A DNA stretch of 46,150 nucleotides, taken from sequence record NC_021190.1. One strand, written 5' to 3'. Position numbers: made by a program. Below, in pieces: positions 27,001-30,000 of the stretch (its first letter is position 1; each line of letters opens with the position of its first letter). The stretch is from Enterobacteria phage phi80.

Positions 27001-30000
27001 CGACCGCATCCAGCCGCTGCGCGTTGAATGCTTCACGAATTAACGTATAGTTTTCGGCATCATTAAGATGCCTGAATGCCTTCATTGCCTCATAGATCAC
27101 CGAATCGGGGACCACCGCCAGCATCTGATACAGGTTAATCAGGTCAGCGCTGACGTCAGCCAGAAGGAAGCGTTCGTGCTTGTCTGAGTTAAGGAACACC
27201 GAGCCGCCACCCACAAAAGGCTCAATAAGGCGTTTACCTGCGGGGATCAAACGATCCAGTTCCGGCAGCAGCGAATATTTGCCGCCAGCCCATTTAAGGA
27301 ACGGGCGCTGCCAGCTGCGCAGCGCCGGTTCTTCTATGGGCATCGCCGCAGCTCCACTGCAAACAGATCCGTATCTCATGCTGCCTCCTGCCTTTCCCGA
27401 TATTCCTCAGCGAGCCGCTGCGCCTTTAATGGATTGCTGACCACTTCACCCCATGGTATTAGCCAGCAGTTACCAATGAAGGGGAGGCACAGTGTGCCTA
27501 CGCTGATGTCGTCGTGAGCGTGAGTCATAGGATGGACTCCATTTCGTCGATATAGAGGCCCTGAGCAATCAGGCGGCGACGGCGTGCTGCACGTTCAATG
27601 CACTCCTGCCGCCTGCCTTCCTGCGACTGCTCTATGGCGCGCCGGGTGAACAGCCGAGATTTACCCTGCGGCGTAATGACCTTTGGCTTCGTAACCAGGT
27701 CGAATGTCCGGTCGCAGATGCCGTCCTCGTTGATCCATTTTTCCGACTCAACGATCTGCGCTATCTGTCCGGTGCCGCGGGTGATGCCGTTGGCGACCCG
27801 GTTAAACTCAATGAGCGATACGCCAAACTTCTCGGCGATTTCGCTGCCAGTGACCGGGCGGCCGCGCGTCTGAATCATCCAGATAACGCGTTCACGGAGG
27901 CCGGAGAATTGCCCGGCTCGCCCGGGCCTGCGGTAGAATGGTGTGCGTTTCATTTCCACTGTTCCCCGAACGTGAAGCCGATCTCTGCCAGCGCCTCGTC
28001 CATCTTCTCGATGAACTCCGGCACCATTTCGTTGAAATCGGACATGTACTGAGGATCCCGCTCAACGACGACGTGGTGAATGCCTTCGCGTTTCATGCGC
28101 GGGTCGTAGTTTGCAAAGAACCATGCGTCTTTTCCGGTCACCCACATGCTGTACTGCACCTGGGCCATGTACGCAGACTTGATGGCTTCGAAACCGCCAA
28201 GGCGGAATTTCATGAAGTCGCGGGAGGTGAAAGGGCATTTAAGCTCAAGGCCGAACCCGTTACTGCACAGGCCGTCAGGGGAGCAGGCGGTGCGCATGCT
28301 CTCGTCACGGAACAAGATCGGAGACTCCGTGACTTTCACGTCAGTGGTGAACTCGAAGAGGGTGCGGGCGTCTTCTTCGTACTGCTTGCCCCAGGCCAGC
28401 GCCTTGGCGTTAACCTCTGGCGCTACACCGGTGCATACCTCGGCGAGCAAGGTGTGGAAGTAGGACATTTTCATGTCTGTCCATTTGCTGCCAGATCGAG
28501 GCTTGGAAATGACGTTGTGAGCGTCAGAGGCAGTAATAACTCCGAGCCTTAATTTGGCCCATGCTTCATCACCTTGCTCTACGGTGGACACATCTATGCC
28601 GGTCCGGGCCAGGATAATTTCTGGTGTCATGCTGCCGCCTTCTTCTTGAGGAAGCCTAAGGCCTTAACTGCCTCGGCTTGGGTAAGCTCGGATGAATCGC
28701 GAATATCACGACGGAAAATTTGCGAACAGACTGGGAGCAGGTTTTCTTCCCATGTCTTATCCATTGCGATAAGGACGTCGTTAATCTCCTTGATAATTTC
28801 GTCTCCTGCTGGGGTTACATCGCGTTCTGGCTGGCGTTCTGCTGAGAAGTTGATACCTTCCTCACCCTCGGTATTAACATGGTCGATGGCGGCATCCAGG
28901 CGCTCACGTCGAGGCCAGTATTTTGCTGCCTGCTTCACGACCGTCTTTAGGATCATCTGCTCTTCATCGGTGACCCATGGACACTTCTTGCTGTTGTCAG
29001 ATTTGTACTTCTTCCATGCTTCAGACCGGTCACGGATGGAGTAGATGGCATCGATGCGCATCGTATGGGTAAGGTAATCACCATCGTCAGTTTTTACCGT
29101 TACATACGCCCCTACAATGTCCCCGCGCTGCTCTTCAGTATCAAAGTCGTTGTAGATGTGGATCGGCGGCTTATCGAGCCCCTCGCGGCGGAACTGGTCG
29201 TTTCTTCGAACAATAGCCGACTGGCACCACTTAATGGCGCCAGACTGCTGCGCGATGTGCATCAGGCCCATGTAACTGATGTCGAGGCAAATAGCCCCTT
29301 TACGCGGAACCAGGTAAGCCAGCTTCTGAGCTGGGTTTAGCGAAATACCGATAGCCGCAACGTTGATGATCGCGTTCTGTGTGCTGGTCTGGTTCTGGAA
29401 TGCAACTTTCGCGAGGTAGTCGTTGTTCTGAAATAGCTGGATGGCGAACTGACTTTCCTTCGCCCACACCATCCGCTCGTCAGTGGCCGCCTTAATGAAA
29501 AGCGGCTCCTGTTGTTTGACGAAATCAACAAGGGTTAAGCTCATAGTCCCTCCTTAAAATGGGCAGATTGGATGAAGGCGATCCCACTCTTCTTCGGCGC
29601 GGTCGTAACAGATGCGTGTGACATAGTCGTTATAGGCTTCCTCTGCCTTTTCACCGACTAGTGCCATTTGCGCTTCTTTTGGGAGAAACAGGCTACTCAT
29701 TTGCAGAGCATATTTCGGGAACATGGCGATCAGTTCTTTCGCCCGGTCGTCGATCCACTTCTCTTTCTCGTCGGTGAGTTGCTGCTCAACCCAGCGCCGT
29801 TCTTCGATGCGGTCGTAAGTGAGGTATGCGTTCATGTTTGCCTCAATATTTGATGTGCGCGTCCTGCACTTTGCCGCCAGCGATCGCCAGCACTGCTTTC
29901 TGTGCGTATTCTTCTGGGATGCCCTGAGCAATCAGATCTGCGTAGACACGACGATTGACGGTGCGGCGGTGCTCTTTGTCTGCGGCTCGGCGCGCTTCTT

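What the first reader, a model, noticed from the sequence alone, without database searches (positions are those of the whole stretch)
28627..29544. Chimeric annealing protein: RecT-type core fused to a lambda Bet-type C-terminal tail
The last ~70 residues match the C-terminus of lambda Bet (the region that contacts Exo), while the N-terminal two thirds carry RecT-like motifs rather than Bet sequence. Since the partner nuclease here is lambda-Exo-type, this looks like a domain swap that kept partner specificity while changing the annealing core.
Basis: partly seen in the sequence, partly recalled or inferred. Interest (0 to 1): 0.5.

Follow-up and report, generated by a model that had tools for sequence, protein, structure and literature searches.

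The report
Phage φ80 RecT with Bet tail
The DNA-annealing protein of phage φ80 is a natural hybrid: a RecT-type annealing core joined by a flexible linker to the small C-terminal domain that phage λ's Bet protein uses to dock onto λ exonuclease. The same tail-plus-exonuclease unit sits on at least four different annealing cores in other phages, so nature has already run the domain-swap experiment on what sets partner specificity in these recombination systems.

Summary
ORF 28627-29544(-) encodes a 305-aa protein. Residues 1-228 are RecT-subfamily: they pass NCBIfam TIGR00616, are 29% identical to E. coli RecT and give no hit to the λ Bet core. Residues 229-304 are 74% identical to λ Bet 180-255, the crystallised Exo/SSB-binding domain. 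The overlapping downstream gene is 85% identical to λ Exo.

DNA similarity to λ starts in the linker codons and runs through exo. The window is phage φ80, so this is RecTΦ80, which has been shown in vivo to be an active recombinase.

The hybrid is not a one-off. The same tail plus a λ-type Exo is also found with the λ Bet core, a second Bet-subfamily core (a Klebsiella phage) and an ERF core (an Erwinia prophage). Phages with the φ80-type core but a different tail lack Exo. Tail identity tracks exo identity (ρ=0.72) and not core identity (ρ≈0).

A 2025 survey listed φ80 as "SAP-4 + Exo" and guessed at "shuffling of partner interaction domains" without analysing it. This is therefore an incremental result of moderate interest.

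The parts
28627..29544 (-). Annealing protein gene (305 aa + stop), i.e. RecT of phage phi80
   Evidence: ORF. PHROG 148 'RecT-like ssDNA annealing protein' matches residues 4-303 (E = 9e-73). Window identified as phi80. RecTPhi80 is active in vivo according to PMC3945230.
28861..29544 (-). RecT-subfamily annealing core (residues 1-228)
   Evidence: Pfam PF03837 residues 31-213. TIGR00616 above its cutoff and no TIGR01913 hit. 29% identity to K-12 RecT, E = 2e-15. 100% identical to the CobraSix core and 51-82% to cores of Cronobacter, Erwinia, Stx2, Vibrio and Yersinia phages. The only annealases matched by fold search are Listeria RecT 7ub2/7ubb (the model of the core is low-confidence).
28810..28914 (-). 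Flexible linker (residues ~211-245). It contains the conserved junction block [17 protein letters not shown] (codons 229-245, nt 28810-28860), where similarity to lambda begins
   Evidence: AlphaFold pLDDT below 50 for residues 211-240. The codon-level DNA alignment shows the block shared by phi80, CobraSix, ENT47670 and, from AERQPERD onward, lambda; phi80 and CobraSix diverge immediately after codon 245. It corresponds to the Bet linker 178-193 (PMC6393309 and PMC11611040).
28630..28809 (-). Bet (Red-beta)-type C-terminal three-helix domain (residues 246-305): predicted Exo/SSB docking module
   Evidence: 74% identity to Bet 180-255. PDB 8tfu/6m9k at E = 6e-32 and 2e-25. pLDDT 80-91 with helices 248-260, 265-276 and 289-304. 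Foldseek rmsd 0.5-0.7 A to 6m9k, 8tfu and 8tg7. Pocket residues conserved.
27950..28630 (-). Lambda-type exonuclease (226 aa), partner of the annealing protein
   Evidence: 85% identity to lambda Exo. Pfam YqaJ PF09588, E = 1e-31. R28, D109, D119, E129, K131 and helix-E contact residues conserved.
28627..28645 (-). ATGA stop/start overlap of the two genes, with a purine-rich Shine-Dalgarno-like AAGAAGG inside the last tail codons
   Evidence: The sequence ...CTCAAGAAGAAGGCGGCAGCATGACACC is shared (GCAGCATGA plus AAGG[C/T]GG) with lambda, CobraSix, Midgardsormr38, the Klebsiella phage and partly E. aeris. PMC3945230 states that the red-alpha RBS lies inside red-beta.
28490..28860 (-). Patch (tail plus the first ~47 exo codons) replaced relative to the otherwise ~95-100% identical phage CobraSix
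   Evidence: Sliding DNA identity is 95-100% upstream, 64-74% in the patch and 90-98% downstream. Proteins: core 100%, tail 62%, exo 95%. Alignment. No closer donor in the phage collection (best 75.6%).
29554..29835 (-). GamL-type host-nuclease inhibitor (93 aa from the ATG), first gene of the gam-SSAP-exo cassette
   Evidence: PHROG 1050, E = 6e-44. Only weak N-terminal similarity to lambda Gam (E = 3e-4). The same gene precedes the SSAP in CobraSix, VT2phi_272, HK639, KO-TP1 and the Klebsiella phage.
27376..27959 (-). Downstream flank (144-aa HTH regulator plus DUF1317) that marks the end of the exchangeable cassette
   Evidence: 93.8% DNA identity to Klebsiella phage KO-TP1 from 27376 up to 27953, i.e. 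to the exo stop codon. KO-TP1 carries a different tail plus a PHROG 253 gene in place of the Bet tail plus exo.

Best explanation
The gene encodes a two-domain single-strand annealing protein. An N-terminal RecT-subfamily core (residues 1-~210) binds ssDNA, oligomerises and anneals complementary strands. A disordered linker of about 35 residues connects it to a C-terminal three-helix bundle that is a true homologue of the lambda Red-beta C-terminal domain. By homology, that bundle presents a hydrophobic pocket (V272, I276, F298, L299, capped by K302). [quoted passage not shown] The same pocket can alternatively bind the C-terminal tail of host SSB. In evolutionary terms, the unit [linker + tail + exo] is a cassette that recombines with different annealing cores at the conserved linker-coding DNA. 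Shown here: the domain architecture, the homologies, the mosaic junctions, and the co-variation of tail with nuclease. Taken from the literature: RecTPhi80 is an active recombinase in vivo. Inferred: physical binding of this tail to its Exo and to SSB.
For: Two-part homology. Structure: linker pLDDT below 50, tail pLDDT 80-91 with three helices; tail superposes on the Exo-bound (6m9k) and SSB-peptide-bound (8tfu, 8tg7) Red-beta CTD at 0.5-0.7 A, while the core matches only Listeria RecT. Interface residues are conserved on both partners. DNA similarity to lambda starts at about 28870 and ends at the exo stop. The same tail with a lambda-type Exo (79-91% identical to the phi80 Exo) occurs on four kinds of core: the lambda Bet core (PHROG 252), a Klebsiella phage Bet-subfamily core (TIGR01913, PHROG 2449, with no BLAST similarity to the lambda core), the RecT-type core (PHROG 148), and an ERF core (Pfam PF04404, E = 6e-23) in P0165 and in an Erwinia aeris prophage with the same gamL-SSAP-exo-regulator order. 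Conversely mEpX1, HK639, Kapi1 and KO-TP1 have the same core (55-61% identity) but an unrelated tail, and a PHROG 253 gene in place of exo. Over 11 loci, tail identity correlates with exo identity (Spearman 0.72, Mantel p = 0.004) and not with core identity (-0.01). Within the 8 RecT-core loci the partial correlations are 0.52 (tail with exo) and 0.13 (tail with core). Short tails go with Exo His186 (6 of 6) and long tails with Tyr186 (2 of 2); in lambda, Bet E256 contacts Exo Y186. In vivo activity of RecTPhi80: PMC3945230.
Against: No binding or recombination assay could be run, so Exo docking by this tail is inferred from homology. The central pocket residue L223, whose mutation to Ala or Asp abolishes the lambda complex, is Val here: conservative, but untested. 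The peripheral contacts Q252 and E256 are changed or deleted. The core part of the structural model is low-confidence (mean pLDDT 58). The co-variation statistics rest on 8-11 hand-picked, phylogenetically non-independent loci, and within the RecT-core loci tail and core are also weakly correlated (0.41). Tail and exo are also linked in cis, because the exo RBS and start codon lie inside the tail codons. Joint inheritance therefore does not by itself prove a protein-protein constraint.
Confidence: 0.78

Rival explanations
1. The tail is kept mainly because it binds the host SSB C-terminal peptide (host adaptation), or simply because its last codons carry the exo ribosome-binding site and start codon (linkage in cis). 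On this view Exo docking is not what keeps tail and exo together.
For: The Red-beta CTD binds the SSB C-tail through the same pocket: PMC6393309 and PDB 8tfu/8tg7. All strong tail hits come from Enterobacterales phages, whose hosts have similar SSB tails. The ATGA overlap and the SD inside the tail codons are conserved.
Against: Phages of the same hosts with the same core (mEpX1, HK639, Kapi1, KO-TP1; E. coli and Klebsiella) do without this tail precisely when they lack Exo. The Exo helix-E contact residues are invariant wherever the tail is of Bet type, and differ in the Vibrio and Yersinia exos, whose tails are divergent. The covariation of tail length with Exo residue 186 points to a direct contact. 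ENT47670 and the Yersinia phage keep the tail and exo although insertions have broken the gene overlap.
Confidence: 0.18
2. There was no domain swap. The whole protein is a uniformly diverged member of one lineage (either Bet-like or RecT-like), and its C-terminus simply evolves more slowly.
For: Bet and RecT cores both match Pfam PF03837 and share the Rad52-like fold. PHROG 252 'Bet-like' aligns from residue 178, slightly upstream of the tail.
Against: Identity to lambda Bet jumps from about 20% (core, not detectable by BLAST) to 73-74% (tail) at the linker. Nucleotide similarity to lambda is absent upstream of about 28870 and is 70-87% downstream. CobraSix has a 100% identical core but a tail only 62% identical. 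An ERF-family core, a different Pfam family, carries the same tail. Tail and core identities are uncorrelated.
Confidence: 0.02
3. The chimera is an assembly artefact or a decaying pseudogene of no functional consequence.
For: Lambdoid prophages are full of fragments, and many database hits to the tail are truncated pieces.
Against: The ORF is intact and overlaps an intact exo. The full-length architecture is present in 142 phage records and in many prophage protein clusters from Citrobacter, Enterobacter, Klebsiella, Salmonella, Cronobacter and E. coli. The window is phi80, and deleting its recT lowers recombination on diverged sequences.
Confidence: 0.01

Closest known systems
Lambda Red-beta (Bet) with lambda Exo (the Red system; PDB 6m9k, 8tfu, 7ujl)
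   Same: The C-terminal three-helix domain is 74% identical (E = 2e-37), with pocket residues conserved. The partner exonuclease is 85% identical. Both have the 4-base ATGA gene overlap, the gam-SSAP-exo gene order and the two-domain layout with a flexible linker.
   Different: The annealing core is not Bet's: there is no TIGR01913 hit and no BLAST similarity to Bet 1-179. The tail is five residues shorter (Bet A254-K258, including E256, are missing), and Exo has His in place of Tyr186. Gam is of the GamL type and only marginally similar to lambda Gam.
E. coli Rac prophage RecT with RecE (RecET)
   Same: The core is RecT-subfamily: TIGR00616 is passed, and it is 29% identical over 164 residues, including the PWxxxxxxMxxKT...KY.P helix.
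   Different: It does not reach the RecT equivalog model NF007351 (69 bits against a cutoff of 296). The Rac RecT C-terminus is short and unrelated to the Bet tail. The partner here is a 226-aa lambda-type Exo, not RecE. According to the literature, Rac RecT binds RecE and not lambda Exo (PMC11611040, PMC5052646).
'SAP sequence type 4' of lambdoid Rec modules (Genome Res 2025, PMC12315714), also called RecTPhi80 (PLoS Genet 2014, PMC3945230)
   Same: This is the same protein and family. The 2025 paper lists phi80 as SAP-4 with Exo and GamL, HK140 as SAP-4 with no nuclease and MuGam, and TL-2011c as SAP-4 with SSB-2. De Paepe et al. showed that RecTPhi80 promotes recombination of diverged sequences.
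   Different: Those papers classify by the annealing domain only. One gives a single global figure of '32% identity with Red-beta'. [quoted passage not shown] The junction, the identification of the tail as the Red-beta CTD and the link between tail and nuclease are worked out here.
Listeria innocua phage A118 RecT (PDB 7ub2/7ubb)
   Same: It is the only solved annealase matched by the core, both by sequence (E = 0.005) and by fold search (probability 0.97-1.0).
   Different: LiRecT has only about 26-47 poorly ordered C-terminal residues, and whether they form a partner-binding domain is unknown. Here the tail is a confidently predicted Red-beta-type bundle.
Lambda Orf / YbcN (structural relatives of the Red-beta CTD)
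   Same: According to PMC6393309 the Red-beta CTD fold resembles the Orf core, and both bind SSB. By homology the phi80 tail shares that fold.
   Different: No sequence similarity to Orf was detected or sought here. Orf is a stand-alone dimer, not a tail on an annealing protein.

Membership tests
RecT subfamily of the RecT/Red-beta (Rad52-like) annealing proteins | Matches the family profile above the curated threshold (Pfam PF03837; NCBIfam TIGR00616 'recombinase, phage RecT family') | tested here: met
   PF03837 103.8 bits against a cutoff of 24, residues 31-213. TIGR00616 55.8 bits against a cutoff of 52.65. PF03837 alone does not discriminate, because lambda Bet also matches it.
RecT subfamily of the RecT/Red-beta (Rad52-like) annealing proteins | Equivalog of E. 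coli Rac RecT (NF007351) | tested here: not met
   69.3 bits against a cutoff of 296. It is a RecT-subfamily member but not an orthologue of Rac RecT.
RecT subfamily of the RecT/Red-beta (Rad52-like) annealing proteins | RecT-like three-dimensional core | tested here: inconclusive
   The core was modelled at pLDDT ~50-60 from a shallow alignment. Foldseek still ranks LiRecT 7ub2/7ubb as the only annealase matches, but with TM-scores of only 0.25-0.59.
RecT subfamily of the RecT/Red-beta (Rad52-like) annealing proteins | Single-strand annealing / recombinase activity | not testable with these tools
   Literature only: deleting recT of phi80 reduces phage-prophage recombination on diverged sequences (PMC3945230). 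The window is phi80.
Lambda Bet (NCBIfam TIGR01913 bet_lambda equivalog) | Bet-type N-terminal annealing domain | tested here: not met
   No TIGR01913 hit at E <= 0.1, whereas lambda Bet scores 169.5 bits and the Klebsiella phage protein 130.6 bits. No BLAST alignment to Bet 1-179.
Red-beta C-terminal domain (Exo/SSB-binding three-helix bundle; PDB 6m9k, 8tfu) | Sequence homology to Bet residues ~183-261 | tested here: met
   74% identity over 76 residues, E = 2e-37. PDB phmmer E = 6e-32.
Red-beta C-terminal domain (Exo/SSB-binding three-helix bundle; PDB 6m9k, 8tfu) | Three-helix bundle fold after a flexible linker | tested here: met
   Helices 248-260, 265-276 and 289-304 at pLDDT 80-91; linker pLDDT below 50. 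Rmsd 0.5-0.7 A and target TM-score 0.89-0.95 to 6m9k, 8tfu and 8tg7.
Red-beta C-terminal domain (Exo/SSB-binding three-helix bundle; PDB 6m9k, 8tfu) | Hydrophobic pocket L223/I227/F249/L250 with K253 | tested here: met
   V272, I276, F298, L299 and K302: three identical residues plus a conservative Leu-to-Val change. Q226 and R229 are also kept; Q252 is Lys and E256 is absent.
Red-beta C-terminal domain (Exo/SSB-binding three-helix bundle; PDB 6m9k, 8tfu) | Physical binding to lambda-type Exo and to the SSB C-terminal peptide | not testable with these tools
   Needs pull-down, ITC or a multimer model. Only indirect support is available: co-occurrence and covariation.
Lambda Exo / YqaJ exonuclease (the partner gene) | Family profile, catalytic residues and helix E | tested here: met
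   PF09588 110.6 bits against a cutoff of 22. 85% identity to lambda Exo. R28, D109, D119, E129 and K131 conserved, as are Q83, D87, T90, L91, F94 and T95.
Two-component phage recombinase (SynExo / EATR pair) | Adjacent, co-oriented, translationally coupled annealase and 5'-3' exonuclease genes | tested here: met
   The SSAP stop and the exo start overlap as ATGA at 28627-28630, with an SD-like AAGAAGG within the tail codons. GamL lies upstream.

The most novel reading that the evidence does not exclude
The Red-beta-type C-terminal domain together with lambda-type Exo is a portable 'resection-and-loading' cassette. On this reading it is sufficient to couple any Rad52-superfamily annealing core (Bet-type, RecT-type or ERF-type) to the nuclease and to host SSB. 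The conserved linker-coding DNA (AERQPERD[I/V]TP) serves as the recurrent crossover site at which phages exchange cores. If so, partner specificity of these recombinases resides entirely in the ~60-residue tail and could be transplanted at will.
Probability: 0.45. Interest if true: 0.6.

Novelty: new variant of a known kind. Interest (0 to 1): 0.42.

Why it matters
[quoted passage not shown] They also say it is "unknown" whether RecT-type annealases use a similar domain (PMC11611040). Here a RecT-type annealase from a classic laboratory phage (φ80) carries a true Red-beta CTD and sits next to a λ-type Exo, and so do an ERF-type and a second Bet-type annealase elsewhere. Together these form a set of natural domain swaps that bear on an old question: why do RecE/RecT and Redα/Redβ not exchange partners (Muyrers et al. 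2000, as summarised in PMC5052646)? The comparison predicts that the ~60-residue tail is the transferable specificity determinant. That suggests a simple design rule for recombineering: graft the tail onto a host-adapted annealing core so that it works with λ Exo on dsDNA. It also points to an annotation gap. Pfam and NCBIfam have no model for the tail, so these proteins are all named just "RecT", and a single global figure such as "32% identical to Redβ" hides the mosaic. The gene itself, however, is known, common and already functionally tested. A 2025 survey already guessed at partner-domain shuffling, so this sharpens existing knowledge and does not overturn anything.

Tried and rejected
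(1) Searching the 5.8-billion-protein index with the tail alone returned only 41 mostly truncated fragments, which were uninformative about architecture. The ~110-aa "stand-alone tail" hits (P0001-P0004) proved to be N-terminally truncated pieces that still contain the last core helix, not a free domain.

(2) The exhaustive scan of 50%-identity representatives with the tail gave only 24 hits. That is too sparse for a census, because the clusters of full-length proteins are represented by members with other tails. It did, however, turn up the ERF fusion P0165.

(3) The AlphaFold model from 25 close homologues gave a poor core (mean pLDDT 58). I therefore did not use it to decide between a RecT and a Bet fold beyond noting the Foldseek ranking.

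(4) I looked for a donor of the tail/exo patch that distinguishes φ80 from CobraSix. Nothing in the phage collection is closer than 75.6%.

(5) The complete φ80 records (NC_021190, JX871397) are not in the collection. The window's identity rests on 99.7% identity to the partial record FN582354.

(6) Iyer, Koonin & Aravind 2002 (PMC101383) and the φ80/Lula genome paper (PMC3510586) are not held. I could not check whether either mentions the shared tail.

(7) I considered whether the mEpX1/HK639-type alternative tail is a remote homologue of the Bet tail. A profile of eight Bet-type tails does not match it (score about 0). It does match the Yersinia tail (E = 6e-11) and, weakly, the Vibrio tail (E = 1e-4 for a single comparison).

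(8) The direction of the swap (which core is ancestral to the cassette) cannot be resolved from these data.
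Full report
WHAT IS THERE. The reported ORF is real: window 28627-29544, minus strand, 305 aa. Its stop codon overlaps (ATGA) the start of a 226-aa ORF at 27950-28630(-). A 93-aa GamL-type gene lies just upstream at 29554-29835(-). The window as a whole has the layout of a complete lambdoid phage genome. Its first 22.9 kb are 99.7% identical to the partial GenBank record of phage φ80 (FN582354). The protein is therefore the annealase of φ80, called RecTΦ80 by De Paepe et al. 2014, who showed that deleting it lowers recombination between diverged sequences (PMC3945230).

CHECK OF THE OBSERVATION. I took authentic reference sequences from annotated records: λ bet, exo and gam from NC_001416 and recT from E. 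coli K-12. Against λ Bet, only residues 229-304 align (Bet 180-255; 56/76 = 74% identity, no gaps, E = 2e-37), and nothing aligns with Bet 1-179. Against K-12 RecT, residues 57-211 align at 29% (E = 2e-15).

Pfam's RecT family covers residues 31-213, but it also covers λ Bet, so it cannot discriminate between the two. NCBIfam can. The φ80 protein passes TIGR00616 "rect" (55.8 bits against a cutoff of 52.65) and shows no hit to TIGR01913 "bet_lambda", which λ Bet hits at 169.5 bits. PHROGs tell the same story: PHROG 148 (RecT-like) matches the full length, and PHROG 252 (Bet-like) matches only residues 178-300.

[quoted passage not shown] The core matches only Listeria RecT, and weakly (7ub2, E = 0.005). 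The downstream gene is 85% identical to λ Exo over all 226 residues. The only correction is that the λ-like part is about one quarter of the protein rather than one third.

STRUCTURE. The AlphaFold model, built from 25 close homologues, is poor for the core (mean pLDDT 58). It still shows a low-confidence linker (residues 211-240) and a confident C-terminal unit (pLDDT 80-91) of three helices at 248-260, 265-276 and 289-304. Foldseek superposes that unit on the Red-beta CTD in both its Exo-bound (6m9k) and SSB-peptide-bound (8tfu, 8tg7) crystal forms, at 0.5-0.7 Å. The next matches are LiRecT 7ub2/7ubb for the core, and no Red-beta N-terminal structure appears.

THE INTERFACE. Caldwell et al. 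2019 (PMC6393309) describe helix E of Exo (T90, L91, F94, T95) inserting into a pocket formed by Bet L223, I227, F249 and L250. This is flanked by Q226 and R229 with Exo Q83 and D87, and by Q252, K253 and E256 with Exo L184, F94 and Y186. In φ80 the pocket is V272, I276, F298, L299, with Q275, R278 and K302. Exo keeps Q83, D87, T90, L91, F94 and T95 as well as its catalytic residues.

The φ80 tail is five residues shorter than λ's (Bet A254-K258, including E256, are missing), and its Exo has His at position 186. Across eight loci, short tails go with His186 (6 of 6) and long tails with Tyr186 (2 of 2). This is a small, non-independent sample, but it is what a direct contact would predict.

IT IS A MOSAIC, AND THE JUNCTION IS THE LINKER. 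Protein identity to λ Bet is 20% in the core and 73% in the tail. Nucleotide similarity to λ is absent upstream of about 28870, then runs at 70-87% through the tail and exo, and stops at the exo stop codon. The codon-level alignment shows a conserved block, [17 protein letters not shown] (codons 229-245), shared at the DNA level by φ80, CobraSix and ENT47670 and, from AERQPERD onward, by λ.

Two natural comparisons pin down the exchangeable unit. Enterobacter phage CobraSix has a core 100% identical to φ80's but a tail only 62% identical. The roughly 370-bp divergent patch (28860 to about 28490) begins right after the linker block and ends about 47 codons into exo, within an otherwise 90-100% identical region. 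Klebsiella phage KO-TP1 shares the downstream flank at 93.8% identity up to the exo stop codon, and the gam-plus-5′-core block at 74%. Between these it carries a different tail plus a PHROG 253 ("Mu Gam-like"/Gp157) gene in place of the Bet tail plus exo.

THE TAIL FOLLOWS THE NUCLEASE, NOT THE CORE. The φ80-type core (E ≤ 1e-40) occurs in 165 phage records (Escherichia/Stx2a, Vibrio, Yersinia, Aeromonas and others). The tail occurs in 275 records, most of them λ/Stx Bet-type. The full-length combination occurs in 142 and in many Enterobacteriaceae prophage protein clusters, all named simply "recombinase RecT".

Loci with a Bet-type tail all carry a λ-type Exo downstream. It is adjacent in φ80, CobraSix, Midgardsormr38, VT2phi_272 (Stx2 phages) and the Klebsiella phage, and separated by a ~200-bp insert in ENT47670. 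The Yersinia phage carries a divergent tail and a more distant exo, separated by a homing-endonuclease gene. Phages with the same core but another tail (mEpX1, HK639, Kapi1, KO-TP1) have no Exo.

The same tail also sits on other cores. Klebsiella phage ST11-VIM1phi8.1 has a Bet-subfamily core (TIGR01913; PHROG 2449) that shows no BLAST similarity to λ's core. Its tail is 45-47% identical, and its Exo is 85% identical to λ's. Protein P0165 and its relative in an Erwinia aeris prophage have an ERF-superfamily core (PF04404, E = 6e-23) fused to the tail (48% identity to Bet 188-254, E = 1e-17). In the prophage this gene lies in the same gamL-SSAP-exo-regulator arrangement, with an Exo 84% identical to λ's.

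Over 11 loci, pairwise tail identity correlates with exo identity (Spearman 0.72, Mantel p = 0.004) and not with core identity (-0.01). Within the eight RecT-core loci the values are 0.62 and 0.41, with partial correlations of 0.52 and 0.13. These statistics rest on few, hand-picked and related loci, so they indicate a trend and do not prove one.

MECHANISM. Shown: a RecT-subfamily core, a disordered linker and a Red-beta-type three-helix tail, encoded immediately upstream of, and overlapping, a λ-type exonuclease gene. Inferred from the λ structures: the tail docks on helix E of each Exo subunit so that the annealing core is loaded on the emerging 3′ overhang. The same pocket can then bind the SSB C-terminal tail, as in the "hand-off" model (PMC11611040).

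A rival reading that cannot be excluded is that SSB binding, or plain linkage in cis, contributes to keeping tail and exo together. The cis argument is that the exo Shine-Dalgarno sequence and start codon lie inside the last tail codons. The absence of the tail from same-host phages that lack Exo argues that Exo is the main constraint.

WHAT IS KNOWN. The gene, its activity and its module context are already known. De Paepe et al. 2014 reported RecTΦ80 as "32% identical to Redβ", a global figure that hides the 20%/73% split. A 2025 survey of lambdoid Rec modules lists φ80 as "SAP-4" with Exo and GamL. [quoted passage not shown] Lopes et al. 2010 noted whole-gene substitutions of recombinase families in a conserved context.

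By contrast, the structural literature says that the Red-beta CTD has no significant homologues, and that it is unknown whether RecT-type annealases use a similar domain. I found no paper describing the RecT-core or ERF-core fusions to the Red-beta CTD. Two potentially relevant papers were not available.

VERDICT. This is a known protein of a classic phage and a common prophage family, so it is not a new system. What is added is the explicit demonstration that its tail is the Red-beta Exo/SSB-binding domain, that the junction lies in the linker, and that [tail + Exo] behaves as a cassette combined with at least four annealing cores. Interest is moderate: useful to people working on recombineering and SSAP mechanism, and unsurprising to students of lambdoid mosaicism.

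Noticed in passing
window 1-46150: The window is essentially the genome of phage phi80 (Lula/phi80): nt 1-22908 are 99.7% identical to the partial phi80 record FN582354. The complete phi80 records are absent from the phage collection, which is why the best full-length protein hit was only 91% (CobraSix).
   Followed up: yes
L015:3998-5427 (Erwinia aeris NZ_JBGFFX010000001) and protein P0165: An ERF-superfamily annealing core (Pfam PF04404) is fused to a Bet-type C-terminal tail and followed, with an ATGA overlap, by an exonuclease 84% identical to lambda Exo. The gene order is the same gamL-SSAP-exo-regulator as in phi80.
   Followed up: yes
L012:1889-3411 (Klebsiella phage ST11-VIM1phi8.1): A Bet-subfamily core (TIGR01913, PHROG 2449) with no BLAST similarity to lambda Bet's own core carries the same tail and an Exo 85% identical to lambda's. 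This is another kind of core on the same cassette.
   Followed up: yes
L005, L010, L013, L014 (mEpX1, HK639, Kapi1, KO-TP1): The phi80-type RecT core occurs with an unrelated helical tail of about 85 residues, followed by a 146-160-aa PHROG 253 protein ('Mu Gam-like end protection'/Gp157) in place of an exonuclease. This may be a second tail-partner pairing. What that tail binds is unknown.
   Followed up: partly
window 26494-27379 (-): A D12-class N6-adenine DNA methyltransferase is split into two ORFs: 26921-27379 matches Pfam PF02086 positions 1-130, and 26494-26835 matches positions 167-253, with an 85-nt gap between them. It could be a frameshifted pseudogene, a sequencing error or a split gene.
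   Followed up: no
window 29843-30811 (-): A 322-aa protein extremely rich in Glu, Arg, Ala and Lys (PHROG 1376, function unknown). The Erwinia phage homologue is annotated 'TolA-like'. Its repetitive composition generates several long spurious ORFs on both strands.
   Followed up: no
protein P0015 (E. coli chromosomes): A 113-aa protein is an in-frame deletion product that joins the N-terminus of lambda Gam to the Bet tail exactly at the linker (...LPQ|PERDITP...). The linker is again the junction.
   Followed up: partly
L006:3873-4076 (ENT47670) and L009:3913-4401 (Yersinia phage vB_YenM_25): Insertions separate the annealase and exo genes in these phages: a ~200-bp insert in ENT47670 and an HNH homing-endonuclease gene in the Yersinia phage. 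They break the otherwise conserved ATGA overlap, yet the tail-exo pairing is kept.
   Followed up: partly
window 28627-28645 and the same site in L001, L003, L007, L012: The last tail codons (KKKAAA; AAGAAGAAGGCGGCAGCATGA) double as the exo Shine-Dalgarno sequence and start codon. Tail length after the F-L pocket residues covaries with Exo residue 186: short tail with His in 6 of 6 loci, long tail with Tyr in 2 of 2.
   Followed up: partly
window 29554-29931 (-): The mechanically listed 125-aa ORF (TTG start) overlaps the upstream gene. The GamL homologues (93 aa) start at the internal ATG at 29835. Similarity to lambda Gam is marginal (E = 3e-4, N-terminal 39 residues only).
   Followed up: partly
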